Positions 3,897 through 26,474 of a stretch of DNA of 58,181 nucleotides are shown here, in pieces (positions within the stretch are counted from its first letter, which is position 1; every line of letters starts with the position of its first letter). Both the position numbers and the translations under genes were made by a program. The notes beneath the pieces were generated by a model that saw only the letters and a list, made by a program, of their open reading frames with translations, searched no databases and was not told the origin of the DNA. The DNA lies in IMG/VR virus record IMGVR_UViG_3300043429_000067, positions 1 to 58,181 of that record; one strand, given 5' to 3'. This DNA comes from a virus. Lineage: Duplodnaviria; Caudoviricetes.

Positions 3897-5990
3897 ATGC
3901 CTCAGTATCAGGGTATATGGAACCTAGCCCAGCAAGCGCAGGCGGTTGTTAGTCAGCAGTGGGGAACTGACCCTCTGTTTGATTACACTACGTTATTACT
4001 TCAAGGTGATAACGTATCTGGCAGTTCGCAGAACAATGTCTTTGTAGATTCCAGCACTAACAATTTTCTAATCACCCGCAACGGCAACACGACGCAGGGG
4101 ACGTTCTCGCCTTTTAGTCAACAGCCGGGGAATTGGAGTGTGTATTTTGGTGGTAGTGGCAATTATGCATCTTCCAGCTCTACTGTAATTTCTTCTACCA
4201 CTTCAACTTTCACCATCGAAGGTTGGATTTATCAAACTGCCGCGACTGTAGGAACAAATATACCTTCTATTATTGGGGATATGTCTCCAACGTCGTTTTC
4301 CGCCTATTGGTCATTTGGTACTCTGGCATCCGGCGCACTCAGCTTCTACTGGTATGATGGGTCGAACAGTCTAAGCGCAGTCACCACTACTACGGTCCCT
4401 CTAAATACTTGGGTACATATCGCAGTTTCTGTTAACTCCAACACCATTAGCATGTACATCAATGGTGTCCAACAATCATTAACTGGTAATACCACACTTA
4501 CAAACAGAGGCGGTACTAATACCCTTACTACATTCGCTCAGTTCTCTGCTGGGACGACTGGTCTATATACTGGGTATATTTCGAATTTCAGTGTACTTTC
4601 AGGCACCGCCAAATACAGCGGGTCTTTTACGCCCAGTTCGACCCCTCTTGCAACAGGCACCACTAACCAGACATTACTGTTTGCTTCAAGTAATAGGTTT
4701 GTGGATGCAAATACCGCCACTACCGCCAAGACATTTACTTTAACTGGAACCCCCTCCGTTCAAGCCTTCAGTCCGTTTGCACCTCAAGACCAGTACACAA
4801 CGCCTGTTATCGGCGGGTCTGGTTATTTTGATGGGAGCGGGGATTATCTCAGTGTGGCCGGATCAACGGTATTAAGTTCAACCGGCGACCTTACTATTGA
4901 AGCTTGGTGCTATATAACAAGTGCTTCAGCGTATGGCGGCATCTTTAGTATGCGAGAAGGTGTGAACGCAGATGGACTTGGAATAACTATATCAAACACA
5001 GGAAATTTCGAATTTACAATTGACCCCGGTGGCATAGTAAGCACACCAATACCTTTACGTCAATGGAACCATGTTGCCCTTGTTCGTTCCGGTAGTAGCA
5101 CAAATAACTGTAGCGCGTATTTAAACGGAGTGCGCGTCGGCCAATTTACCGCTACAAACCAAGCAAACATGGCTAATAATGTGGCTGTCATTGGGCGGTA
5201 TTACGCAAGCGGCGGTGATGCAAACTGGACTACTGGCTATATATCTGATGTTAGGTATGTCGTTGGGCAAGCCCTCTACTCTGGCGCGACAATAACTGTC
5301 CCAACTGCTCCGCTTACCACAACCTCGCAAGGCGCAACCGCATCAAATGTAGAGCTGCTTTGCAACTTCACCAACGCCGGTATCTACGACGGCACGATGA
5401 AGAACAACCTAGAGACGGTTGCTAATGCTCAGGTAAGCACCTCGGTGGTGAAGTACGGCTCAGGGTCCCTATACTTTGACGGCACAGGCGATTATTTAAT
5501 CATGCCGTTTTCTCCTTGGATGTCATTCGGCACTGGGGACTTCACTATAGAGGCGTGGGTATACCCCAATAGCCTTGCAAGCGCTCAGGATATAGGCTCT
5601 TTCAGGAAAGATTCTCCAAGCGTTAACTCGGACGTTGGTTGGGATATTTATGTTGGAGCGAATAATGCCAGCAATGAAGCGGCTATTTACAGCTCAACAA
5701 CCAAATATGCGGTAACTGGCTGGTCATTGACTGCAAAACAATGGCAACATATCGCTTTTGTAAGACGAAACGGTTACTTATTGTTTTTCCTTAATGGCGT
5801 ACAGCAAGGTTCCGCTACAGCCGCCAATGTGTCTGTTAACTCTGGAACAACGTGGTACACCGTTGTAGGCACGTACACTGCCGCTTCACGAAATTTTAAT
5901 GGCTACCTCGATGATTTTCGTATCACTGCAGGCATCGCCCGCTACACCCGTAATTTCACCCCTCCGCAAGTAGCATTACCGAGGCAATAA
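3897..5990 (+). CDS. LamG/concanavalin-A-like multidomain tail (receptor-binding) protein
   Basis: Three modules with YFDGxGDYL, FTIExW, WxH[IV]A, Y[IL]S[DN][FV]R motifs. Confidence 0.8.
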   Translation: MPQYQGIWNLAQQAQAVVSQQWGTDPLFDYTTLLLQGDNVSGSSQNNVFVDSSTNNFLITRNGNTTQGTFSPFSQQPGNWSVYFGGSGNYASSSSTVISSTTSTFTIEGWIYQTAATVGTNIPSIIGDMSPTSFSAYWSFGTLASGALSFYWYDGSNSLSAVTTTTVPLNTWVHIAVSVNSNTISMYINGVQQSLTGNTTLTNRGGTNTLTTFAQFSAGTTGLYTGYISNFSVLSGTAKYSGSFTPSSTPLATGTTNQTLLFASSNRFVDANTATTAKTFTLTGTPSVQAFSPFAPQDQYTTPVIGGSGYFDGSGDYLSVAGSTVLSSTGDLTIEAWCYITSASAYGGIFSMREGVNADGLGITISNTGNFEFTIDPGGIVSTPIPLRQWNHVALVRSGSSTNNCSAYLNGVRVGQFTATNQANMANNVAVIGRYYASGGDANWTTGYISDVRYVVGQALYSGATITVPTAPLTTTSQGATASNVELLCNFTNAGIYDGTMKNNLETVANAQVSTSVVKYGSGSLYFDGTGDYLIMPFSPWMSFGTGDFTIEAWVYPNSLASAQDIGSFRKDSPSVNSDVGWDIYVGANNASNEAAIYSSTTKYAVTGWSLTAKQWQHIAFVRRNGYLLFFLNGVQQGSATAANVSVNSGTTWYTVVGTYTAASRNFNGYLDDFRITAGIARYTRNFTPPQVALPRQ

Positions 5991-5993
5991 GAC

Positions 5994-8687
5994 ATGAGCA
6001 AATACGCAGGGAACATTATCACCACCGGCGCTGATGCGGGGTACTCTGTCTACTTTGATGGGACCGGGGATTATCTACAGTCTACTACGGCGGCCTTATC
6101 AGGCGCGTTTACTATCGAATTTTGGTACTACAGGGTAGGCACTGGTAGCAACTATTGTTTTACCGTAGGGGACTCGATTACTTCTACCGGCATAGAAGTC
6201 TATATCGGTACAAGCGGCACCGTATTTAATGCTATCTACAGTAACGGTGCGGCGCAAGTAACATCTACTACGCAAGTCCCTACAGCTAACGGTTGGTCCC
6301 ATATAGCTTTAGTCAGAGAAGGGGCTAACGTAATTAAATGTTATCTAAACGGTGTGCAAGTCACCGGCTCTTACACTTCATCTGCAACATTTAATAGTGT
6401 TGTACGTATTGGCGCAGAGTACTATAACGGGAATATTACCGGAAGTGCTAATGCGTATATCTCTAATTTTAGGATTGTTAATGGTACTGCGTTGTATACC
6501 GCAGCGTTTACTCCGCCGACTCAGTTATTAGCTATTACAAACACCAGTCTGCTGACATGTAACTCCCCGGCTATTATCGATCAGAGCAGTAACGCATTTG
6601 CGATTACTGCCAACGGTGATGCTAAGGTTAGTCCGTTCACGCCTTTTGCTGGCTACCAAGTATACAAACCAGAACTTGGTTCCGCGACGCCCGGCGTATG
6701 GACGCTCAGTGAAGCACTGCAAGCCAAGCAGACCCGCCAGTGGAATATGTACGACCCCTATTTCCGAGACACGGTGTTGGCGTTGCGTAGTGGTACAGTA
6801 GATGGAGCACAGAATAACTCTTTCGTAGATAGTTCATCTACTGGGTATTCTGTTGTTCGGAATCCTACGACTGGGCCTAATGCACCTACACAGGGTACAT
6901 TCACTCCGTTTAGTCCAACAGGCTGGTCGGTGTACACAAACTCTGATCGGCAGAGTTGGGTGTCAGTATCAAGTGCATCACTGGCATTGGGTACAGGTGA
7001 CTTCGAGATTTCGTTTTATATGTATTACATTAACGGCACCTATATCATGGGTACCGGCAATACTAGCGGCTCTTGGGCGTTCACCAGTGATGGCTCGTTT
7101 AGGCGGAATACACTAGCGTCCGACTTTATTAGCGGTGGAGTAACTGCACGTACATGGGCGAAGATTCGATGTGTACGTATATCTAGCGTTACTTACTTGT
7201 ACGTTAATGACGTACTACGTGGGTCAGCAGCGGATACCCAGAACTACACAAACTCTAATTTGGGTATAGGTAACTTCACCCAAGCCGCTGGCGGCTCGCC
7301 TAACTTTGCGTCTGAAGTTTATATCTCGAACCTGAAGATTGTTAAGGCTGGTACGACCATACTGGATACATTTAGGAACAATCGGTATATCGACAACAGT
7401 CCTACTCCACTGACTGTTACACCTAACGCTAACGCTACTTATCTACCGCCGTTTGTTGTTCCGTACACGCTGACCAACCCGGATGCTGCGTACTCTCCTG
7501 CGGTACATGGCGGTAGCGGCTACTTTGATGGTACTGATGATTACCTAAGTATCACTACTGCTGCGACTAATTATTACTCCGCACTTGGGGAATGGACATG
7601 GGAAGCATGGATATACCCGTTGTCTTTTAGTGGACCACAATACTCATGCGCGATTCTAGCGAGTTCGTTAGACAGTATGTTATTACGCGCTGATGTAACA
7701 ACTGCTATATCTACCACACTCAATATGTACGCTATTAACTCCTCCAATGGCGCGATATTGGGTGCATCCGGTACTAGCGCGGGTACACTCCGTCTTAATG
7801 AATGGGCGCACGTAGTTGTGCAGCGCCGCGCTGGCGAGTTCGATCTATTTATTAATGGCTCTCGTGTTGCTAATGTAAACACACAAACGGCCACAGCTAT
7901 TAGAACAACTGATACAGACCTATGGATAGGTAAAGGTAACGCTGGTACAAGCCCGTTCTGGAATGGGTATATATCGGATGTACGTATACAGAACGGTAGT
8001 GCTAAATATTCAGGAACTACCTATACGGTACCAACTGCCCCCTTGTCCCCTACAGGTGCAGCAGTAAAACTCAGCTTCACCAACGCTGCGATCTTTGATA
8101 CCACCGGTAAGAACGTATTAGAGACTGTAGGTAACGCGCAATCTAGTGTTGCCCAGAAGAAATATGGCCCTACGGCTATGTACTTTGATGGCACGGGGGA
8201 TTATCTATTACCTAGAACGAACAGTATAGGAGCCTTTGGCTCTGGCGATTTTACAATCGAGTTTTGGATAAACTTTGTTACGGTGTCGTCCGCCCAAATT
8301 ATCTTGGACTTTAGGACTGCTACATCTACAGTAGCTCCTGCGATCTCACTTAAAAACACCGGCGTAATCTATTACTACACGGGTGGCGGAAGCCCCGGCG
8401 AGCGCATAACCGGCTCTACTTTATCTGCAGGAACGTGGTACCACGTTGCGGTTTGTAGATCGAGCGGAAGTACAAGGATGTTTGTAAACGGCGTTCAAGT
8501 AGGATCGACGTATACAGACACTAATGTTTATGTTGGGGCTGCTAACCGCCCTTGGGTCGGGGGATTAGCAGATGGGACGACCCCAGCGCAATGGCTAAAC
8601 GCCTATGTAAGTGATTTACGGATAACTCGTTTTGCTCGTTATAAAGCGAACTTTACTCCACTAACTTCAAGAATTCAGGATCAGTGA
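5994..8687 (+). CDS. LamG/concanavalin-A-like multidomain tail (receptor-binding) protein
   Basis: About four LamG modules with the same motifs; paralog of upstream gene. Confidence 0.8.
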   Translation: MSKYAGNIITTGADAGYSVYFDGTGDYLQSTTAALSGAFTIEFWYYRVGTGSNYCFTVGDSITSTGIEVYIGTSGTVFNAIYSNGAAQVTSTTQVPTANGWSHIALVREGANVIKCYLNGVQVTGSYTSSATFNSVVRIGAEYYNGNITGSANAYISNFRIVNGTALYTAAFTPPTQLLAITNTSLLTCNSPAIIDQSSNAFAITANGDAKVSPFTPFAGYQVYKPELGSATPGVWTLSEALQAKQTRQWNMYDPYFRDTVLALRSGTVDGAQNNSFVDSSSTGYSVVRNPTTGPNAPTQGTFTPFSPTGWSVYTNSDRQSWVSVSSASLALGTGDFEISFYMYYINGTYIMGTGNTSGSWAFTSDGSFRRNTLASDFISGGVTARTWAKIRCVRISSVTYLYVNDVLRGSAADTQNYTNSNLGIGNFTQAAGGSPNFASEVYISNLKIVKAGTTILDTFRNNRYIDNSPTPLTVTPNANATYLPPFVVPYTLTNPDAAYSPAVHGGSGYFDGTDDYLSITTAATNYYSALGEWTWEAWIYPLSFSGPQYSCAILASSLDSMLLRADVTTAISTTLNMYAINSSNGAILGASGTSAGTLRLNEWAHVVVQRRAGEFDLFINGSRVANVNTQTATAIRTTDTDLWIGKGNAGTSPFWNGYISDVRIQNGSAKYSGTTYTVPTAPLSPTGAAVKLSFTNAAIFDTTGKNVLETVGNAQSSVAQKKYGPTAMYFDGTGDYLLPRTNSIGAFGSGDFTIEFWINFVTVSSAQIILDFRTATSTVAPAISLKNTGVIYYYTGGGSPGERITGSTLSAGTWYHVAVCRSSGSTRMFVNGVQVGSTYTDTNVYVGAANRPWVGGLADGTTPAQWLNAYVSDLRITRFARYKANFTPLTSRIQDQ

Positions 8688-18632: not shown

Positions 18633-21600
18633 ATGGCACAGGCTGGACTGTCGTTCGCTAACCCGTTCATGGAAAAGACGAGTGTTGGCGAACCTGCTAA
18701 CCCCTATGCACCGTTCAGTCCTACATCATCCATCGGGATGGGTGGGCTCGGTCCTTCACTCGCTGACATGGCCGTCACCGGCCAGCAACTTATAAAGCAA
18801 AGTCAGTTCACTCTCCCTGAGTTCACCCGCCCACCCGCTGGCGCATCGATCGCATTTAGCCCGGCTGAGAAGAAAGTCTTTGTCAACGGGCTGACGTTCG
18901 ACGTAGATGATGCAACCTCCGCGCTGCAGTCTGAATCCTATATGCGTGGTCCCGGCACGGGACTCCCCAAAGGGGGCGACTGGGTTCCACTGGATGAAGG
19001 CACCTATGCACAGTATCTCGACGCCATTCGTAACCCTACTCTGGGACGCCTCGCAAGTAAGAATTTCGGGCGCGGTGTTGATGTTATGCAGTCTCTGGCT
19101 GGCCGGGCGCTGCAACTGGCGGGTGCTGAGGGACTGGGCGGTCGTATTGTCGCCGCGCAAGAGGCTGATCTGCGTAAGACAGCGCCTTATGAACGCCAGT
19201 TCACGGATATTGAATCGGGTCGCGGCGCTGTTGAGTGGCTGGTGGCTAACTTCGCACAGCAAGGACCCAACCTTATTGAATCTGTTGCGACTGCTGGACT
19301 GGGTTTCTTGGCTGGTACTGCTGTTGGCGGTCCTGCCGCTGGTGTGTCTGCTGCTTTCTCTGGCCTTCTAGGTAAGTCCGCATGGAAGGAATCCGTCAAA
19401 GCTGCACTGAAGAAGCAAGCCGCTGGTGAAGCACTGGACGCTGCAGAATCCAAGCTGATCAGGGAAGCCGCCGGTATCGCTGGCGCTGTTGCTACGTCCT
19501 ACGCACAGAATCTGGCCACGGGTGCCGCCGACATCTACGGTGAGTTGCGTGACCAAGGCGCTGATGCTGGTGATGTGGATGCTCGACTGAAGGCACTGGC
19601 AGGTTCCGTCCCGTACGCCGTCCTTGAGACACTGCCTGAATACCTGCTGGCCGGTCGTATCTTCAGCGGTATGGGTGCTCCACGGGCTATGGCTCCGGGC
19701 GCTTCGTTGGGTCGTCGTGGTGCTGAGTTGCTGCGCCGTGGCGCAGTCGGTGGTGTTGTCGGTGGTACGGCTGAAGGTGCCACGGAAGCTGGTCAGGAAG
19801 CTCTGTTGCTGGGTATATCTGGCCAAGACCTGTCCTCTCCTGAAGCCGTCAACCGGCTGATCAACTCGTTCGCTGCGGGCTTCGGCGTTGGTGGTCCGAT
19901 CGGCGCTGTGGCCAACCTGAAGGGTAAAGCTCCAGCCAACCTGTTGAACCCCGGCCAGACAACCGACCCGTCTCCTGAGCAACAGAATCCCCCGCCCGGT
20001 GGTCCGCTTGCCCCTGTGGCACCTGCGTCCCCGTTCGGCTTTACACAGCCCATGCCGCCCGCTCCGGGTGCTCCTGCTGCTCTCCCCGGTGGTGCTCCTG
20101 CTGCGCCCGCACTTGGCGCTCCTGTGACTGCTCTGCCTGCTGATCAGGCCATTATGGTGACTGGACAGGAACCGCTCCCGTCGGGTCCCGGCACTCAGGG
20201 TGTGCTGAATATCTTTGGACCTGAAGGTGTGTCGGCACAGGAGTTGGCAACCCGTATGCAGCCCCCGGCTGCTCCTGCTCCCCAGCCCGCAGCACCTGCT
20301 GCACCTACTCCGCAGCCCGGCCAAATGGCATTGCAGTTTGCCCCACCGGTACCGGGCGCAGAAGCTCCGTTCAATCCGCAGATGGCCAATCAGATGCAGG
20401 CCATCCAGCAACGCATTCAGCGGCAGCGTGAGTTCGAGATGGCTCAGGCACAGGCGGCTGCCCAGCAGCAAGCTCAGATGGATCAGATCGCACGACAGAG
20501 CCAGAACGCCCGTGATCTATACATCCTGCAGCAACAACAGGCGGCAGCCGCTGTACAGCCGTCCCCGCAACAACTTCCAAGAGTTCCTGCTACCCCGGCG
20601 GAGCCTGTGCAGTTACCGTTGTTCACACCCAAGCAAGCCCCACGTCCGTCACGTGGCGAGGGTCTGCGTAAAGGTGGCCGCGCAGCGGCGCTTCCTCCGA
20701 CTGGTGTACCGGCTGTACAACCACGTGTTGACCTGCGTCGTTCGCCACAACTTCCGCTGTTTACACAGGAAGGCCAGCCGTCGTTGGCAGCACTGCGAGC
20801 CGCAGGTGTGAAGGGCAAACTTCCAAAACCTACACTGGAGAAGGGTGCCAAGCAGATCAAGCCAACAGGCAAGGCTGTAACACCTGCCACGGTTGAGAAG
20901 GCCAAGGCAGATCGACTGGCTGCTATCAAGGCAGCTTCTGAGAAACTCAAAGCGAAGGGGAAAGAAGATGCCGCTCAAAAAGGGAAGCAGCAACAAGGTG
21001 GTGTCAGCCAACGTCAAGAAGATAATGGACGAGTACAAGGCGGGCGGCAAGCTGGGGAACAGCCCAAGGCCGAAGTCCAAAAAGGCGGCGCTGAAACAGG
21101 CCGTCGCGGCGAGCCTCTCAAGCGCGGGGCGCAGCAAGAAACCTTAACCGACAGGTTAAAAGCTCGTATTGCTAAAGGCGCTTTCGGGGGACCGACCCCA
21201 AAAAAAGTCGGGGCGGCGGTAGCCGCCGTTGAGGTCGAAGCTCTCCCACCGGCTGAAGCGTGGGAAGACATGAAGCCTGAAGGTGCACCAGCATACAACG
21301 CCCTGACACGCGCTGCCCAGCAGGAATGGGCGGGCGCACCTGCTCGTACTATGGCTTTGGCAGAGAAGCTGGCTGCTGGCGAGACAACGATCGAGGAGCG
21401 CGAGCCGACTGCCGCTGAGATACTTGCTGAGGAAATCCAAGCTGCTGAGGAAGCCACCGACATCCGGACATTCCGCGATGCTATCCAGACGGTGATGGAG
21501 TATGCGTTCTTCACCAACGAAGAAACCAACACCAAGAAACTCGTAGCCCAAGCACAAGCGTTCCTCGATAACACCCAGTTCTCACTGGAACAGATGGGCG

Positions 21601-24600
21601 CAATGGATCAGGCGTTCTTGGATGCTGCGCAGTATCGACTCACGCTGGATGCAACCTACACCCGTGGCGGTAAGAAAGACCAGCCCAAGCCGTGGTTTTC
21701 CTACGCGCTGGCACGTAACCTGCTGCCCAGTATCAAAGCCAAACTGATCAACCTGCCCGCTGTTTACAAGGCCGCTGCTCCCGCTGGCGAGAAGACGATG
21801 AAAGCTGGTGCGCCTAGCACAGCCAGCCGCATTACGAGCACACCACAGGAGTTGCTTGGTGAACTGATCAGTGATCTGATCACGCAGATTCGTGAAGTGT
21901 CCAACCTGAACGCGCCGATGAAGTTCCGTGGCGAGACGTATACCAACCTTGTTGATCTGGCCAAGCAGTTGTATGCCAAGGTGGACGCGGCTGGGAAAAA
22001 CTTCATCGTTCGTGGGTATAAACTCAGTGAGTACTTCAAGGCTGACGGCACACCCAAGACACTGAAGTCCGGTGGTCGCGTCATCATTACCAATAAGGAA
22101 CTGACTGCCGAACAGCAAGCCGAGTTGGAAAAGCAACAACGCGCCGAGAAGAAAGCAATGGCCGCCGAGCGCCGTGCCGCAGCACAGGAAGAATTCAACC
22201 GCACTGTGTCGCCCGAGGAAGATGCTTGGGACAATGACGATGGCCGCTTCTACCGTGATGATGGCAGCCCGATCAACACAACGGTGCCCATCGGTCGTGT
22301 CAAGATTCTGGTCAACAGCTTCCTGTCCAAGCTGCGCATGAAGCCAACCGTTGGTGTGTACGCCAATGTCGAAGACCTGCGCCGCCGCAACCCCAAGCTG
22401 TACGAACAGGCAGCCGCTGCTCGTGGTAATGGTGACTTCGGTACTGTCAAGGCTGCTGGCTATTCGTTCGGTAAAAACGTCCTGATCTTCACCGACTTCA
22501 TCCGTACTGAACAACAACTGAAGTTCATCCTTGCCCACGAAACACTGGGTCACTTTGGATTCAGGGGCATCATGCCAGCAGCACAACTGGACAAGGTGCT
22601 GAACCGTATCTACGAGGTTGACCCAGATGTCCGCGCCGGTGTGGACGCAATGATGCAAAGCCGTGGCCTTCCGAAGTCAGAGGCCATCGAAGAATATTTG
22701 GCAGACAACGCCGCTGATCTGGATGTGTCCATCGTGACCCGCATCTGGAATGCACTGAAGAACTTCCTGAACAAGCTGGGCATCACGTTCCAAGACGACG
22801 AGGCTCGGTACTTCATCAACCAAGCTCGCAAGTATGTGCGCCGTGGTGACACTGGTAACTACGTCAACGCCCGTACGCTTGTGGAGGATATGGAGCAACT
22901 CGATGCGGACAGAAATGATGGCCGTTACGCTACTGCTCCTATTGGTGATCTGGCTTCACGTGCATTTACTGCTGGCGCTCTGAACCGTAGGCACGGTGGT
23001 ACAGGTGGACTGGCTGGCGCAGCACAGGCATTTGTTGATGGGGTATTCGGTGCCCGGCGTAATGTGCCCGGCAAGGTTGCCTCCATCCTTGAACAGATAC
23101 AGACACTGGACAATAAGGCACGTCGTAGCTACGGCCTGAACCAGATATATCGGATGCTGGAAAAGCAACAGCAGTTCTCCCGCGCATTGCTGTCGAAGTA
23201 CCAACGCATGACTCAGTTCACCCACTCGCCTGATCTGTTTGGTCTGGGTAAAGGTGTGACAGAAGCTCAGAAAGAATCTGCTGGTGAGTTGCTGGCTCGT
23301 GCCGCCTTGCTCCGTGCGGCTGCTGCGACGGATGAAGCAATCAAGTCGTATGACTCTCTGGTATCTGTTGACGACATGGGTAATGTCACGGTCAATCCAC
23401 TGGTGCGTCAGCAGATCGAGCAAGCAGGTTTTGTTACCGCCGAGGAGTTCCGCAAGGGCTTTGACGTCGAGTACTCCAACGGTGAGAAGGTGCGCTTCCA
23501 GTTCGACGTGGACGAGAACAGCCCTGAGTGGAAGGTGTATCTGGAAACCCGTGATACGGTCAACGAAGCTGCCATCGATCTGATGCTGGCTAACTACGAA
23601 GCTGCACAGGCCGAGGGCAAACGGGTTGTTGGTGATCTGAACAACCAGCGCACTACCACCAACAAGTTTACGAACGATGATCTGGATGCTATCCGGCGTG
23701 CAGCGGAACTGTATAAGAACAAGCGGTACCAAGGTAGTGACGTGGCAAGTGCTGGTGTAGAGGTAAAGAAAGCGGCTGCCAAGGATTCGGAGGAGTTCAT
23801 CATTGCGTTCGGTCGTGCGCTGTTCAACGATGATGTGTACAAGGTGTGGGTGAAAGACCCGACCGCCAGCGCAGAGATTGCCAAGGACTTTGAGAAGTTC
23901 ATGGCTGCTGAGTACGACGATCTCCGCGCTGCCCTGCCAAGTCTGCGCTCCAAGATTCGCAACGAGAACGACTCGTTCGCTGTACAGAAGGCAGTGCGCG
24001 ATCTATTCATGTTCGACCTGCAGTCCAAGAACGCAGACTATTACGCCAAGCGTACTATCCTTGGCTCGTATGTACCGTTCGTACGCCGTGGTACTGAGCA
24101 GGTTCGATTGGTGGCAGTGGATGCAAACGGCAACACGGTTAAGCTGGACGAGAATATCCGCAGCACCCTGCCGTACTTCCACACTGACACCCGTTCCGAA
24201 GCAGAGGCTATCGCGGCTGATCTGGAGAAAGAGTTCGGTGACCAAGAGTTCACTATGCTGGACGATACCGGCGCAGAGGTTAAGGTACGCTTGATCACTG
24301 AGGTGTCGAAGAACCGACAGTCGCCTGACCTGACTGAAGCCGTGAACTTTAACGAGTTCGTGTACGTACTGAACAGGCTCAACGCCAACATTGCTCCGGA
24401 CGTACGCGAGAAGATCATCACGACACTGACCAACCAGAACAGTCGTGCTCGTCGTAACCTGCAGCGTTCCGGTACCGAGGGATGGGATAAGGATGTGATC
24501 CGCTCTGTGTCCGAGCACCTTGAGACATCTGCCCACGTAGCAGCCAAGAAACTCTATCGCCATCGACTGGACGATGTGCTGCTGGATAACCGCAACTGGC

Positions 24601-26474
24601 TGGGCGATGATCAGAAACTGAAAGACCTGAAGGATGCTGTAGCCAACGCGCAGACTGACGGTGAGCGGGCACGTGCGCAACGTGCCTACGATGAGTATGC
24701 GTACATGTACAGATACATGGCTGGTAGCACCGGCAAGCGTACTGTCACGATCGATGGCGAAGAAGTACCCACGCTGGGTCGTGGCGAAGATTATCGGGAA
24801 GAAGCCAAGCAGGTGCTGCGCTGGTACAGTGAGGCCACCAATATCACCGACTCCACTGAGGATATGCTCTCGGGTGAGGCTGGCTCTGCACTGAAACTGG
24901 CAACCGTCCTGATGCAACTCGGTGGCTCCGTGGCTACAGCGGTGATCAACTTGGCTTCGATGGCTACCCACAGTCTGCCGTACCTGTCCTACTACAACTC
25001 CAAGCGTGGCTTCGGTGGTGGATACGGTGAGTCCAAGGCTGCGTCTGCTCTGTTCCAAGCGGCTCGTGATGTGAAGAACCGCAACCTGTCCGAAGCTGCG
25101 TTCCTGAACGACATACTGCGTGAAGGTACGTACGACAGGTACAACCTGACAGAAGATGAAGCACAGTTCCTGTTCCAGCAGACTGAGGAAGGCACACTGC
25201 AAGCAGCCCAGTTCAACGCACTGGTGGGTACCGCTCGTGGCAAGGTGTTCAACAACAAGGCTCAGGCTGCGATCAAGCTCTGGATGGAGATGTTCTCCTA
25301 CACGGAACAGTTCAACCGCCGCGTAACCGCTCTGGCTGCGTACCGCTTGGAGAAGGAACGTGCACTGGCGCAGGGTCTGACCGAGGAGCAAGCCATCCGT
25401 GCTGCTACCGAAGCTGCTCGCACTGCCGTCAATACTGCTCAGGGTGAGTATGCGATGTTCAACCGCCCTGAGATGGCTCGCGGTAACGTACTGCAATACG
25501 TGTTCATGTACAAACAGTTCGTGATCGTTACAGTCCAGTTGATGCGCAGCTTGCCGGTCAAGGGTCAACTGATGATGCTGGGCTTCCTGCTGCTGACTTC
25601 TGGTCTGAAGGGTCTGCCGTTTGCAGAAGATATATTCGACATCGTTGACACCATAGCTCAAAAGCTGGGCTTGAAGATGGCCAGTGTGGAGAAGGAAATC
25701 ACTGAGTGGGTTGACAGCGTGGCTCCGGGTATGACCCCGTATCTGATGCGTGGTGTACTCGACCGGATGACTGGTGCCACGATGTCTACCCGTCTGGGTA
25801 TGGGTGATTTGGTGCCACTGACTGGTGCGTTCCGCGCTGGTGCTGACCCGGCTCGTGAAGTGTCTGACTTCGCTGGCCCTGTGTTCTCTGGTATCTCTGG
25901 TCTGGTAGGTATGGCTGGCAGCCTCGGTAAGTACGGTGCGGAAGTGATCGGTCTGCGGGATGATGTGACTACCATCAACGGTATCCTGCGTGACTCTCCG
26001 GTTGCGGCTCTACGTGCGATGGGTGACAGCTACGCTTACCTGAACAGCGGAATGATTACCAACGCTCAGGGACAAGTTGTACAGCGTGAAGCACCCTACC
26101 ACGTGATCCTTGCCCGACTGCTGGGCTTCTATCCGGCCATTGCTTCTGAGCAGAACGACATCGTGCGGCTGTCCAAGTACGTCGGTGACTATGCCAAGGC
26201 GATCAAGGCTGAGTATGTCAGTGCGTACGTCAAGGCAACACTGTCGGGTGATCGTGAACGTGCACGGGAGATTGCAGCCGCAGTGCAGGAGTGGAACCAA
26301 GGTGCTGAGGGTACGGGGCTTACTATCCGTACGTTTGAGAAAGATGCTGCACGTGCAGCCTTGGAAGCCGGTCGGCCTACAGCACTCAGGTATCTCCGTT
26401 CAGCACCCAAGCAGATGCGTCCGGAGACAATCGAGTTGCTGCAAGCCTATGGCCTGTACGACGAGATCAGGTAA
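18633..26474 (+). CDS. Giant internal virion/ejection protein (2613 aa, polyvalent-protein-like) with zincin-like motif
   Basis: Last gene of late arm; LAHETLGHFG...EEYLAD motif; Pro/Gln-rich linker. Confidence 0.7.
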   Translation: MAQAGLSFANPFMEKTSVGEPANPYAPFSPTSSIGMGGLGPSLADMAVTGQQLIKQSQFTLPEFTRPPAGASIAFSPAEKKVFVNGLTFDVDDATSALQSESYMRGPGTGLPKGGDWVPLDEGTYAQYLDAIRNPTLGRLASKNFGRGVDVMQSLAGRALQLAGAEGLGGRIVAAQEADLRKTAPYERQFTDIESGRGAVEWLVANFAQQGPNLIESVATAGLGFLAGTAVGGPAAGVSAAFSGLLGKSAWKESVKAALKKQAAGEALDAAESKLIREAAGIAGAVATSYAQNLATGAADIYGELRDQGADAGDVDARLKALAGSVPYAVLETLPEYLLAGRIFSGMGAPRAMAPGASLGRRGAELLRRGAVGGVVGGTAEGATEAGQEALLLGISGQDLSSPEAVNRLINSFAAGFGVGGPIGAVANLKGKAPANLLNPGQTTDPSPEQQNPPPGGPLAPVAPASPFGFTQPMPPAPGAPAALPGGAPAAPALGAPVTALPADQAIMVTGQEPLPSGPGTQGVLNIFGPEGVSAQELATRMQPPAAPAPQPAAPAAPTPQPGQMALQFAPPVPGAEAPFNPQMANQMQAIQQRIQRQREFEMAQAQAAAQQQAQMDQIARQSQNARDLYILQQQQAAAAVQPSPQQLPRVPATPAEPVQLPLFTPKQAPRPSRGEGLRKGGRAAALPPTGVPAVQPRVDLRRSPQLPLFTQEGQPSLAALRAAGVKGKLPKPTLEKGAKQIKPTGKAVTPATVEKAKADRLAAIKAASEKLKAKGKEDAAQKGKQQQGGVSQRQEDNGRVQGGRQAGEQPKAEVQKGGAETGRRGEPLKRGAQQETLTDRLKARIAKGAFGGPTPKKVGAAVAAVEVEALPPAEAWEDMKPEGAPAYNALTRAAQQEWAGAPARTMALAEKLAAGETTIEEREPTAAEILAEEIQAAEEATDIRTFRDAIQTVMEYAFFTNEETNTKKLVAQAQAFLDNTQFSLEQMGAMDQAFLDAAQYRLTLDATYTRGGKKDQPKPWFSYALARNLLPSIKAKLINLPAVYKAAAPAGEKTMKAGAPSTASRITSTPQELLGELISDLITQIREVSNLNAPMKFRGETYTNLVDLAKQLYAKVDAAGKNFIVRGYKLSEYFKADGTPKTLKSGGRVIITNKELTAEQQAELEKQQRAEKKAMAAERRAAAQEEFNRTVSPEEDAWDNDDGRFYRDDGSPINTTVPIGRVKILVNSFLSKLRMKPTVGVYANVEDLRRRNPKLYEQAAAARGNGDFGTVKAAGYSFGKNVLIFTDFIRTEQQLKFILAHETLGHFGFRGIMPAAQLDKVLNRIYEVDPDVRAGVDAMMQSRGLPKSEAIEEYLADNAADLDVSIVTRIWNALKNFLNKLGITFQDDEARYFINQARKYVRRGDTGNYVNARTLVEDMEQLDADRNDGRYATAPIGDLASRAFTAGALNRRHGGTGGLAGAAQAFVDGVFGARRNVPGKVASILEQIQTLDNKARRSYGLNQIYRMLEKQQQFSRALLSKYQRMTQFTHSPDLFGLGKGVTEAQKESAGELLARAALLRAAAATDEAIKSYDSLVSVDDMGNVTVNPLVRQQIEQAGFVTAEEFRKGFDVEYSNGEKVRFQFDVDENSPEWKVYLETRDTVNEAAIDLMLANYEAAQAEGKRVVGDLNNQRTTTNKFTNDDLDAIRRAAELYKNKRYQGSDVASAGVEVKKAAAKDSEEFIIAFGRALFNDDVYKVWVKDPTASAEIAKDFEKFMAAEYDDLRAALPSLRSKIRNENDSFAVQKAVRDLFMFDLQSKNADYYAKRTILGSYVPFVRRGTEQVRLVAVDANGNTVKLDENIRSTLPYFHTDTRSEAEAIAADLEKEFGDQEFTMLDDTGAEVKVRLITEVSKNRQSPDLTEAVNFNEFVYVLNRLNANIAPDVREKIITTLTNQNSRARRNLQRSGTEGWDKDVIRSVSEHLETSAHVAAKKLYRHRLDDVLLDNRNWLGDDQKLKDLKDAVANAQTDGERARAQRAYDEYAYMYRYMAGSTGKRTVTIDGEEVPTLGRGEDYREEAKQVLRWYSEATNITDSTEDMLSGEAGSALKLATVLMQLGGSVATAVINLASMATHSLPYLSYYNSKRGFGGGYGESKAASALFQAARDVKNRNLSEAAFLNDILREGTYDRYNLTEDEAQFLFQQTEEGTLQAAQFNALVGTARGKVFNNKAQAAIKLWMEMFSYTEQFNRRVTALAAYRLEKERALAQGLTEEQAIRAATEAARTAVNTAQGEYAMFNRPEMARGNVLQYVFMYKQFVIVTVQLMRSLPVKGQLMMLGFLLLTSGLKGLPFAEDIFDIVDTIAQKLGLKMASVEKEITEWVDSVAPGMTPYLMRGVLDRMTGATMSTRLGMGDLVPLTGAFRAGADPAREVSDFAGPVFSGISGLVGMAGSLGKYGAEVIGLRDDVTTINGILRDSPVAALRAMGDSYAYLNSGMITNAQGQVVQREAPYHVILARLLGFYPAIASEQNDIVRLSKYVGDYAKAIKAEYVSAYVKATLSGDRERAREIAAAVQEWNQGAEGTGLTIRTFEKDAARAALEAGRPTALRYLRSAPKQMRPETIELLQAYGLYDEIR
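20968..21147 (+). CDS. Nested small basic protein (59 aa) in +1 frame of giant gene
   Basis: GAAGGGG upstream of ATG; MPLKKGSSNKVVSANVKKIM...KQAVAASLSSAGRSKKP resembles a widespread stand-alone phage peptide family. Confidence 0.6.
   Translation: MPLKKGSSNKVVSANVKKIMDEYKAGGKLGNSPRPKSKKAALKQAVAASLSSAGRSKKP
21186..21232 (+). promoter_or_regulatory. Candidate -1 ribosomal frameshift signal
   Basis: GGGGGA, A7 run (A_AAA_AAA in frame), 5-nt spacer, GGCGGC-ggta-GCCGCC hairpin, TGA in -1 frame at 21230. Confidence 0.5.

What the first reader, a model, noticed from the sequence alone, without database searches (positions are those of the whole stretch)
21186..21232. dnaX-style -1 frameshift signal predicting a ~866-aa short isoform of the giant protein
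Seen: SD-like GGGGGA (21186-91), then CCA AAA AAA G (A7 at 21200-06), a 5-nt spacer, a GC hairpin GGCGGC-GGTA-GCCGCC (21212-27), and a -1-frame TGA at 21230. Known: E. coli dnaX uses an internal SD, an A-rich slippery site and a stem-loop to make a truncated isoform. Inference: the phage makes the N-terminal third (helical domain plus Pro/Gln linker, ending KKSRGGGSRR) separately from the full-length protein. The signal lies ~40 nt after the nested gene. Caveat: the in-frame heptamer is A_AAA_AAA, not the stronger A_AAA_AAG; transcriptional slippage on A7 is an alternative.
Basis: partly seen in the sequence, partly recalled or inferred. Interest (0 to 1): 0.75.

Follow-up and report, generated by a model that had tools for sequence, protein, structure and literature searches.

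The report
Conserved frameshift signal in giant phage gene
A giant virion-protein gene of an uncultured freshwater phage carries a conserved ribosome-slipping signal, built like that of the bacterial dnaX gene, that should stop a fixed share of ribosomes after the first third of the protein.

Summary
The 2613-aa ORF (18633..26474) reads CCA AAA AAA GTC. So A_AAA_AAA (21200-06), and an overlapping C_CCA_AAA, are in -1 slippery register. A 5-nt spacer, the hairpin GGCGGC-GGTA-GCCGCC and a -1 TGA follow. The product would be 866 aa.

In this one sequence none of it beats chance: hairpin z is -0.63, and 45% of positions have a -1 stop within 8 codons. The case rests on comparison.

- 39 distinct homologous sites carry one of four heptamers in register; 35 of 39 have a GC stem, at 5 nt in 30.
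- The stem shows compensatory changes, e.g. GGGGGC/GCCCCC and GGCTGC/GCAGCC.
- An SD-like element lies about 9 nt upstream in roughly half.
- Synonymous conservation at the site is in the top 0.4% of windows by ratio.
- Slippery heptamers are otherwise depleted in the gene (3 seen, 11.1 expected).

The cassette belongs to one clade: 26 of 60 fused, covered genes have it, with several losses. In three split-gene variants it persists about 70-90 codons into the separate C-part gene. I therefore read it as setting the ratio of the N-terminal to the C-terminal module.

It is a new member of a known kind (dnaX/CsoS2-type truncating -1 frameshifting). No product has been observed.

The parts
18633..26474 (+). 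Giant ORF (2613 aa), zero frame; full-length product
   Evidence: NCBIfam NF032893 PLxRFG 'tail-700' domain at aa 1813-2567, 199.7 bits against a cut-off of 100; phrog_11358 and phrog_21376
18633..21232 (+). Coding span of the predicted 866-aa short isoform (zero frame to 21206, then -1 frame to the TGA)
   Evidence: stand-alone homologs of this third exist as separate genes
20968..21147 (+). Nested small gene in the +1 frame (59 aa, ATG, own SD); context only, not part of the signal
   Evidence: phrog_2423 E 2.3e-8; strongest synonymous-constraint peaks of the giant gene
21186..21191 (+). Internal SD-like element GGGGGA, 8 nt before the A7 heptamer
   Evidence: anti-SD duplex -8.6 kcal/mol, top 2.2% of positions in its own gene; 19 of 39 distinct sites fall in the top 5%
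21197..21206 (+). Tandem slippery site C_CCA_AAA_AAA (heptamers at 21197 and 21200), in X_XXY_YYZ register
   Evidence: four heptamer types interchange at the homologous position
21207..21211 (+). 5-nt spacer GTCGG
   Evidence: spacer is 5 nt in 30, 6 nt in 4 and 4 nt in 1 of the 35 sites with a stem
21212..21227 (+). Stimulatory hairpin GGCGGC-GGTA-GCCGCC
   Evidence: perfect GC-rich stem in 35 of 39 distinct sites; 2 of 6 pairs with compensatory changes
21230..21232 (+). TGA stop in the -1 frame
   Evidence: a -1 stop lies 1-17 codons after the heptamer in all 39 sites, but this is uninformative
21252..21284 (+). AEAWEDMKPEG motif, first conserved block of the C-terminal part
22527..22559 (+). 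ILAHETLGHFG (HExxH motif) in the part missing from the short isoform
   Evidence: motif seen by eye only, no profile match
24069..26333 (+). PLxRFG-type C-terminal domain (aa 1813-2567)
   Evidence: tblastn to F116-like Pseudomonas phages, 26-28% identity over aa 2082-2604

Best explanation
This is a functional programmed -1 ribosomal frameshift cassette of the bacterial three-part type: an internal SD-like element, an X_XXY_YYZ heptamer, a 5-nt spacer and a GC hairpin.

Proposed mechanism. A ribosome has tRNA-Pro/Lys or Lys/Lys on C_CCA_AAA_AAA and is held by the hairpin at its mRNA entrance. In many relatives it is also pulled by anti-SD pairing about 9 nt upstream. It slips back one base in a fixed share of passages, reads 8 more codons and stops at TGA 21230-32.

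The result is an 866-aa protein: the helical N-terminal domain plus the Pro/Gln linker. That share of ribosomes never makes the 1750-aa C-terminal part, which holds the HExxH region and the PLxRFG domain. The cassette thus fixes a ratio in which the C-terminal module is less abundant than the N-terminal module of a virion-associated giant protein.

Shown: the sequence anatomy and its conservation under selection.
Inferred: that ribosomes shift, the efficiency, and the use of the two products.
For: 1. Register and conservation. 39 distinct 79-nt site sequences were collected. All carry an in-frame heptamer: A_AAA_AAA 10, C_CCA_AAA 21, A_AAA_AAG 7, C_CCA_AAG 1. The residue of the first codon varies (P, L, A, S), but its third base always fits the heptamer.

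2. Given the amino acids, synonymous resampling yields a heptamer with P 0.01-0.17 per lineage and a 6-bp stem with P 0-0.19.

3. Stem. 35 of 39 sites have a perfect GC-rich stem of 5 bp or more; the spacer is 5 nt in 30. Variant stems keep pairing through changes on both sides: GGGGGC/GCCCCC, GGCTGC/GCAGCC, AGCGGCG/CGCCGCT. On 24 rows, 95.1% of cells pair, 2 of 6 pairs have compensatory changes, and the covariation score is 0.129 against 0.045, with 0 of 500 shuffles as high.

4. Synonymous constraint. The 11-codon site window has obs/exp 2.28. That is the top 0.37% of 2727 windows by ratio, and the top 0.04% outside the nested-gene region. The gene-wide value is 1.15. The nested gene serves as a positive control, z about 20.

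5. SD-like element. 19 of 39 sites are in the top 5% of their own gene, mostly 8-10 nt upstream.

6. In-frame slippery heptamers are avoided elsewhere in the ORF: 3 observed, 2 of them at the site, against 11.1 +/- 3.2 expected.

7. The boundary is a real module boundary. The N-third exists as a separate gene in L009, L066 and L074, and in many 900-1070-aa proteins.

8. The cassette persists in 3 of 4 related split forms, inside the C-part gene.

9. Pattern control. 7 of these lay in long ORFs in register, and 6 of the 7 belong to this gene family.
Against: - No protein, ribosome or RNA data exist. No RNA run was listed and the phage is uncultured.
- In the window alone the hairpin is not better than shuffles, z -0.63. 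The near -1 stop is expected by chance.
- The stem is made of Ala codons (GCN). Sliding the partner by +3 still pairs 85.4% of cells, and only 4 cells show compensatory changes.
- The cassette is not universal. Of 60 fused genes that cover the region, 34 lack it. These are mostly distant clades, but also the near relatives L002/L051 and L046, where it is decayed to T_CCA_AAA with GGCAGC/GCCGCC.
- L022, L023 and L024 have A_AAA_AAG but no stem.
- In split forms the shifted product would be only a ~75-100-aa peptide. That does not fit a reading in which the point is to free the N-third.
- The sites were located by their heptamer, so '39 of 39 with a heptamer' holds by construction. The unbiased figures are 14 of 14 rows that an unguided alignment placed in one column and 26 of 60 fused genes.
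Confidence: 0.62

Rival explanations
1. Frameshifting is real, but its selected effect is only to throttle translation of the C-terminal part. The truncated product is a by-product without a role of its own.
For: In the split forms L009, L066 and L074 the cassette sits 70-90 codons into the separate C-part gene. Shifting there yields only a short peptide. The -1 tail is just the hairpin read out of frame.
Against: A weaker start site would throttle more cheaply. In fused genes the cassette lies exactly at the boundary that nature also uses to split the gene. The head peptide made in split forms may itself dock on the tail of the N-third: weak support, ipSAE 0.48 against best control 0.01. That mark was reached by 58 of 80 solved complexes and 2 of 110 mismatched pairs, but at 0.60 or under by only 7 of those 80 and by both mismatches. 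The runs agreed in at least 97% of contacts and the partner's pLDDT was 76.
Confidence: 0.18
2. There is no recoding. The nucleotide conservation reflects a P-K-K/A-A-x-A-A peptide with biased codons, or a conserved junction at which the N- and C-modules recombine.
For: The Ala-codon stretch is self-complementary by nature (slide control). The N-domain and C-part trees disagree. One contig of run X7 joins a different upstream sequence exactly at 21198. The hairpin pattern alone is common in IMG/VR, at least 117 loci.
Against: Residues change while the heptamer rule holds. L022/L023 encode a similar V-A-A-P-A peptide without a stem, so the peptide does not force the stem. Compensatory stem changes occur. 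Heptamers are depleted elsewhere in the ORF. A recombination junction does not explain a reading-frame-specific pattern.
Confidence: 0.12
3. RNA polymerase slips on the A7 run. Some mRNAs gain or lose an A and encode the truncated protein, as in Thermus dnaX.
For: A7 in the window and in 9 other distinct sites. Sharma et al. 2014 note that AAAAAAA is under-represented in all frames, possibly because of transcriptional slippage (PMC4066793, passages seen).
Against: 22 of 39 distinct sites have only A3 or A4 after C3-5, and 7 have A6G. The conserved spacer, stem and SD-like element have no role in polymerase slippage. Register-specific conservation points to the ribosome.
Confidence: 0.05
4. The hairpin followed by T7 on the minus strand is an intrinsic terminator for antisense transcription.
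For: The scan lists GGCGGCTACCGCCGCC CCGACTTTTT on the minus strand.
Against: 2 such sites were found against 2.2 expected in shuffles. Five bases separate the stem from the T run. In the 22 C_CCA_AAR sites the T run shrinks to 3-4. No minus-strand gene ends there.
Confidence: 0.02

Closest known systems
E. coli dnaX tau/gamma -1 frameshift
   Same: Three-part signal: an internal SD upstream, a Lys-codon heptamer (A_AAA_AAG occurs in 7 of the 39 sites here) and a stem-loop a few bases downstream. The shifted ribosome stops almost at once, so the frameshift product is the shorter protein lacking C-terminal domains (Atkins et al. 2016, PMC5009743, passages seen).
   Different: The genes are unrelated; this is a phage giant virion-type protein. 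The window uses A_AAA_AAA/C_CCA_AAA and a weaker SD (GGGGGA). The stem is 6 bp. Rfam's families gave no match. Efficiency is unknown. The dnaX spacings and its ~50% efficiency are recalled, not taken from a call.
CsoS2 (alpha-carboxysome) -1 frameshift giving CsoS2A/CsoS2B
   Same: A repetitive scaffold-like protein is made in a long and a truncated form by -1 frameshifting. The signal is present in only part of the family: 79 of 162 species in the review passage (PMC5009743).
   Different: Cellular organelle protein with different repeats. Details of its signal were not examined here.
Phage lambda G/GT and related tail-chaperone frameshifts; T7/T3 capsid 10A/10B
   Same: Phage structural genes in which -1 slippage fixes a ratio of two products that share an N-terminus (PMC5009743).
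   Different: There the shifted product is the longer, rarer fusion. Here it is the shorter one. The gene family is different.
Polyvalent proteins of phages (Iyer et al. 2017)
   Same: A giant multidomain protein encoded among virion genes, with an HExxH motif. That paper proposes that modules are separated by zincin-like peptidases (PMC5512222, passages seen). The N-domain model gives weak fold hits to proteins named 'large polyvalent protein-associated domain' (E 0.02 and worse).
   Different: The paper does not contain the word frameshift (0 occurrences in the search listing). Here modules would be separated at the ribosome, or by gene fission. Membership was not shown by any profile.

Membership tests
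Bacterial three-part -1 PRF signal (dnaX / IS3 type) | X_XXY_YYZ heptamer in the zero-frame register | tested here: met
   Window: A_AAA_AAA at 21200 and C_CCA_AAA at 21197. All 14 rows that an unguided alignment put in one column carry one. 39 distinct sites in all.
Bacterial three-part -1 PRF signal (dnaX / IS3 type) | Stable stem-loop or pseudoknot about 5-8 nt downstream, maintained in evolution | tested here: met
   35 of 39 sites have a stem; the spacer is 5 nt in 30. 95.1% of cells pair and 2 of 6 pairs are compensatory. Caveat: the Ala-codon periodicity, and the window's own z is -0.63.
Bacterial three-part -1 PRF signal (dnaX / IS3 type) | Internal Shine-Dalgarno-like stimulator upstream | tested here: inconclusive
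   19 of 39 sites are in the top 5% and 23 of 39 in the top 10% of their own gene. The window is at 2.2%. It is absent or weak in the rest. The host's anti-SD is unknown; a recalled consensus was used.
Bacterial three-part -1 PRF signal (dnaX / IS3 type) | Enhanced synonymous-site conservation at the site | tested here: met
   Obs/exp 2.28; top 0.37% of 2727 windows by ratio.
Bacterial three-part -1 PRF signal (dnaX / IS3 type) | Two products observed, dependent on the heptamer | not testable with these tools
   No RNA or protein data; the phage is uncultured.
dnaX gene family (homology) | Sequence or RNA-family similarity to dnaX or its frameshift element | tested here: not met
   No Pfam family for the protein. 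No Rfam match in 20000-22500 at E up to 1. The likeness is in mechanism only.
PLxRFG-domain giant phage proteins | Match to NCBIfam NF032893 above its cut-off | tested here: met
   199.7 bits against a cut-off of 100, aa 1813-2567. No literal PLxRFG string in this protein.
Polyvalent proteins (Iyer et al. 2017) | Zincin-like metallopeptidase or other catalogued domains shown by profile | tested here: inconclusive
   The HExxH motif was seen by eye. There is no Pfam, PADLOC or PDB sequence match. Only weak fold hits to named LPD proteins.

The most novel reading that the evidence does not exclude
The cassette is a portable ratio-setter that survives gene fission.

In split-gene relatives an inserted block of fibre-like genes is flanked by a ~45-aa tail on the N-third and a ~65-aa head on the C-part. 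The two dock on each other. The frameshift site just after the head makes a head-only peptide that caps N-third tails, in competition with head-plus-C-part.

The same fixed share of N-third copies therefore stays free of cargo, whether the link is covalent or not. Together with the nested +1 gene, one stretch of linker would then encode three products by three decoding routes.
Probability: 0.2. Interest if true: 0.75.

Novelty: new member of a known kind. Interest (0 to 1): 0.6.

Why it matters
Truncating -1 frameshifts of the dnaX type are few, and none turned up for giant virion or polyvalent phage proteins. The searches were 'PLxRFG', frameshifting terms with phage and internal-virion terms and 'polyvalent proteins' with 'frameshift'.

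This case comes with natural experiments in one family: four interchangeable heptamers, compensatory stems, losses, a decayed copy and gene-fission variants. That makes it a good system for asking what a fixed ratio of short to long isoform is for.

It also affects annotation. These 2600-aa ORFs probably yield at least two proteins, plus a nested third.

Tried and rejected
- blastn of the site region against cultured phages found no match. tblastn found only the C-terminal domain, in 44 records. No cultured phage with the cassette is therefore at hand.
- Pfam, PADLOC, PDB sequence search and Foldseek against PDB gave nothing significant for the protein or its N-domain.
- No tRNA genes in the window. 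No Rfam match around the site.
- No RNA holder was listed among public runs, so RNA-level slippage could not be looked at.
- The search for split-form genes whose protein shows the PPKK-AEAA motif before the tail found none in viral contigs: 410 pattern matches, none confirmed. Their DNA could not be obtained.
- The earlier-findings tool was not open.
- The minus-strand terminator reading was rejected.
- An internal start site fed by the SD-like element was rejected. No ATG, GTG or TTG lies 5-13 nt after 21191.
- A link between the stop of the nested gene and the site was rejected. The distance ranges from 17 to 620 nt among relatives.
- The supplementary tables of Sharma et al. 2014, with per-motif efficiencies, were not seen. 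They may bear on how slippery A_AAA_AAA and C_CCA_AAA are.
Full report
WHAT THE WINDOW IS

The window is a complete 58,181-nt virus record from IMG/VR. It encodes a terminase, a portal/adaptor, an internal virion protein (phrog_511) and large fibre-like proteins. The finding lies in a 2613-aa ORF, 18633..26474 on the + strand.

The last quarter of this ORF matches NCBIfam NF032893, a 'PLxRFG domain-containing protein' (199.7 bits against a cut-off of 100, aa 1813-2567). That part is shared at 26-28% identity with giant proteins of F116-like Pseudomonas phages and a few others (44 records, all matches in aa 2082-2604). The first two thirds have no Pfam family, no PDB relative and no relative in cultured phages.

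THE OBSERVATION

- The zero frame reads ACC CCA AAA AAA GTC GGG GCG GCG GTA GCC GCC GTT GAG.
- A_AAA_AAA (21200-06) is in slippery register.
- The hairpin GGCGGC-GGTA-GCCGCC (21212-27) starts 5 nt later.
- The -1 frame reads K K S R G G G S R R and stops at TGA 21230-32, giving an 866-aa product.
- C_CCA_AAA at 21197 overlaps the A run, so the site is a tandem one.

DNA contigs from two other runs (X4, X5) cross the A7 run without an indel, so the long open frame is not an assembly slip.

Taken alone, the sequence proves little.
- The hairpin folds no better than shuffles: z -0.63, with 50 of 200 shuffles as good.
- 45% of positions in the ORF have a -1 stop within 8 codons.
- The terminator scan lists the stem on the minus strand, but at chance frequency: 2 found against 2.2 expected.

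COMPARATIVE EVIDENCE

Three searches supplied homologs.
- 14 viral loci found with the whole protein.
- 29 metagenome loci found with the region after the site.
- 80 viral loci found with the N-terminal third, ten of them on contigs already seen.

At the homologous place I found 39 distinct 79-nt site sequences. Every one has an in-register heptamer:
- A_AAA_AAA, 10 sites;
- C_CCA_AAA, 21 sites;
- A_AAA_AAG, 7 sites;
- C_CCA_AAG, 1 site.

Because I located sites by their heptamer, that count holds by construction. Two unbiased statements stand beside it. All 14 representative rows that MAFFT placed in one column carry a heptamer there. Of 60 fused genes among the 80 N-third loci that cover the region, 26 carry the cassette.

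The residue in the first codon changes (Pro, Leu, Ala, Ser), but its third base always fits the heptamer. Given the amino acids, gene-specific codon usage would give a heptamer with P 0.01-0.17 per lineage.

A tree of the C-terminal part has three deep clades, one on a branch of 1.67 changes per site. By my reading of that tree, the heptamer type switches at least four times without leaving the X_XXY_YYZ rule.

The stem:
- 35 of 39 sites have a perfect GC-rich stem of 5-8 bp.
- The spacer is 5 nt in 30 sites, 6 nt in 4 and 4 nt in 1.
- Loops are 4, 5, 7 or 8 nt.
- 25 sites share GGCGGC/GCCGCC.
- Others keep pairing through changes on both sides: GGGGGC/GCCCCC (L054), GGCTGC/GCAGCC (L080, L084), AGCGGCG/CGCCGCT (L060), AGGCGGCG/CGCCGCCT (L073), GCGCCG/CGGCGC (L118).

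On the 24 rows with a 4-nt loop, including two rows without a stem, 95.1% of cells pair. Two of 6 pairs show compensatory change. The covariation score is 0.129 against 0.045 in shuffles, with 0 of 500 as high. The caveat is real: the arms are Ala codons, and sliding the partner by +3 still pairs 85.4%.

An SD-like element (often AAGGAGG) lies mostly 8-10 nt upstream. 19 of 39 sites are in the top 5% of anti-SD pairing within their own gene. The window's GGGGGA is at 2.2%.

Synonymous-site conservation was measured on 20 representatives, using the 152 pairs below 65% amino-acid identity.
- Gene-wide obs/exp is 1.15, so synonymous sites are close to randomised.
- The 11-codon window over the site has obs/exp 2.28 and z 13.1.
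- That puts it in the top 1.65% of 2727 windows by z and the top 0.37% by ratio.
- Outside the nested-gene region it is in the top 0.45% by z and 0.04% by ratio.
- The strongest peaks (z about 20) lie just upstream and are explained by a nested +1-frame gene. This serves as a positive control for the method.

In-frame slippery heptamers are avoided in the rest of the window's ORF: 3 observed, two of them at the site, against 11.1 +/- 3.2 in synonymous shuffles.

LIMITS OF THE CONSERVATION

The cassette belongs to one large clade, not to the whole family.
- 34 of the 60 fused, covered genes lack it. These are mostly distant, partly AT-rich clades.
- Within the clade it was lost in L002/L051, which reads GCC CCG CCG AAG AAA CCG with no stem.
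- It was also lost in the L064 group and in L088.
- L046 holds a decayed copy with one change in the heptamer (T_CCA_AAA) and one in the stem (GGCAGC/GCCGCC).
- L022, L023 and L024 have the strongest heptamer type, A_AAA_AAG, but no stem.

GENE FISSION AND WHAT IT SAYS ABOUT FUNCTION

The N-terminal third also exists as a separate gene.
- In L009 it is a 927-aa gene. About 4 kb of fibre-like genes follow, and then a 1959-aa gene for the rest.
- L066 and L074 are built the same way.
- A protein search found 55 relatives of 476-1516 aa. Many are 900-1070 aa long and sit on long contigs.
- Ten of the twelve I read end in a conserved ~45-aa tail (..DG.K...L..I.K.E.LL.CL..).

The frameshift site therefore lies at a boundary that evolution also uses to cut the gene.

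Unexpectedly, the cassette stays with the C-part gene in 3 of 4 related split forms (L009, L066, L074; not L042). It sits 70-90 codons after the start, behind a conserved ~65-aa head. Heptamer, spacer and stem are intact, and an SD-like run (GGAGGG in L009, GGAGGA in L066) lies upstream by eye. There a shift yields only a short head peptide.

I therefore read the selected function as fixing the amount of the C-part relative to the N-module, not merely freeing an N-third.

A complex prediction of tail with head gave weak support. The score was 0.48 against a best control of 0.01. The mark was reached by 58 of 80 solved complexes and 2 of 110 mismatched pairs, but at 0.60 or under by only 7 of those 80 and by both mismatches. 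The runs agreed in at least 97% of contacts, and the partner's pLDDT was 76. If the two dock, a head-only peptide would cap N-third copies. That would reproduce non-covalently what the short isoform does in fused genes. This is my boldest reading and is not shown.

Several stand-alone N-third proteins show a PPKK-AEAAxAA-like motif just before the tail. Their DNA could not be obtained.

WHAT THE PROTEIN IS

An AlphaFold model of residues 1-460 (45-row alignment, mean pLDDT 71.6) is a helical bundle with a small sheet. It has no significant PDB match. In BFVD it matches unnamed giant phage proteins (best E 1.6e-16). More weakly, at E 0.02 and worse, it matches proteins named 'large polyvalent protein-associated domain'.

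The part missing from the short isoform contains an HExxH motif at aa 1299-1309. Iyer et al. 2017 describe phage polyvalent proteins as virion-packaged. They propose that zincin-like peptidases process them (PMC5512222, passages seen). That fits as a lead, but no profile supports membership here.

RIVALS

- Transcriptional slippage is unlikely, because 22 of 39 sites have only 3-4 A.
- A pure peptide or codon-bias explanation fails on four points: the register rule, the compensatory stems, the stem-free L022/L023 that encode a similar peptide, and the depletion of heptamers elsewhere.
- A recombination junction has some support. The N-domain and C-part trees disagree, and one X7 contig has a junction exactly at 21198. 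Still, it would not produce a frame-specific pattern. It is more likely a consequence of the conserved stretch.
- The antisense terminator reading is at chance level and is not conserved.

COMPARISON WITH WHAT IS KNOWN

The signal works like E. coli dnaX: an internal SD, a Lys heptamer and a stem-loop, with the shifted product being the shorter one. It also resembles CsoS2, where only part of the family uses the shift (PMC5009743, passages seen). It is not a homolog of either.

Phage G/GT and T7 10A/10B also set ratios by -1 shifts, but there the shift makes the longer product.

No paper on a frameshift in PLxRFG or polyvalent proteins came up. I searched for 'PLxRFG' (5 papers, none on this), for frameshifting terms with phage terms and for 'polyvalent proteins' with 'frameshift'. 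For the first three I saw listings and abstracts only.

Sharma et al. 2014 report that A_AAA_AAG shifts efficiently and is avoided, and that AAAAAAA is under-represented in all frames (PMC4066793, passages seen). Their per-motif tables are supplements that I could not see.

VERDICT

I put about 0.8 on real programmed frameshifting, and 0.62 on the ratio-setting reading with a functional short isoform. It is a new member of a known kind, with unusually rich natural variation.

Noticed in passing
window 20968-21147 (+1 frame of the giant ORF): A nested 59-aa gene with its own SD and ATG lies inside the Pro/Gln linker. Every clade has one at this place, but from one of two alternative small-protein families. 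Type A (PLKKGSS...KQAVAASLSSAG) is in the window. Type B (PFKSxAQRRYLHA...EWExKY) is in L003, L007, L014, L024, L002 and L009. It gives the strongest synonymous-constraint peaks of the giant gene and hits phrog_2423.
   Followed up: partly
L009 2790-15439; L066 5998-14580; L074 5998-14736: These are gene-fission variants. The giant gene is cut by 3-4 kb of fibre-like genes. The cut is flanked by a conserved ~45-aa tail on the N-third and a ~65-aa head on the C-part, each with an invariant Cys. Tail-head binding has weak predicted support, 0.48 against 0.01 for the best control.
   Followed up: partly
window 18633-26474: In-frame X_XXY_YYZ heptamers are depleted: 3 observed against 11.1 +/- 3.2 in synonymous shuffles.
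   Followed up: yes
window 21198 (run X7, record 12): A contig from another sample matches from 21198 onward but carries a different upstream sequence, of the type seen in L010/L017. This is a mosaic junction exactly at the slip site. The trees of the N-domain and of the C-part also disagree.
   Followed up: no
window 21252-21340 and homologs: A Trp-bracketed motif (EAWEDMKPEG...QQEW) follows the site. It is repeated a variable number of times, and in some relatives it also lies upstream of the site (L009 has three copies; L010, L017 and L002 have one before the site).
   Followed up: no
window 22527-22559: An HExxH motif (ILAHETLGHFG) lies in a conserved block of the C-terminal part. It may be a zincin-like peptidase as in polyvalent proteins, but no profile match was obtained.
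   Followed up: partly
L046 8710-8790: A decayed copy of the cassette lies behind an inserted ~80-aa segment: T_CCA_AAA, with the stem broken by one G-to-A change and the SD-like AAGAAGGAG kept.
   Followed up: yes
window 3897-5990 and 5994-8687: Two adjacent large genes share the same C-terminal families (phrog_3545, phrog_24074, baseplate-wedge-like). They are probably paralogous fibre or spike proteins.
   Followed up: no
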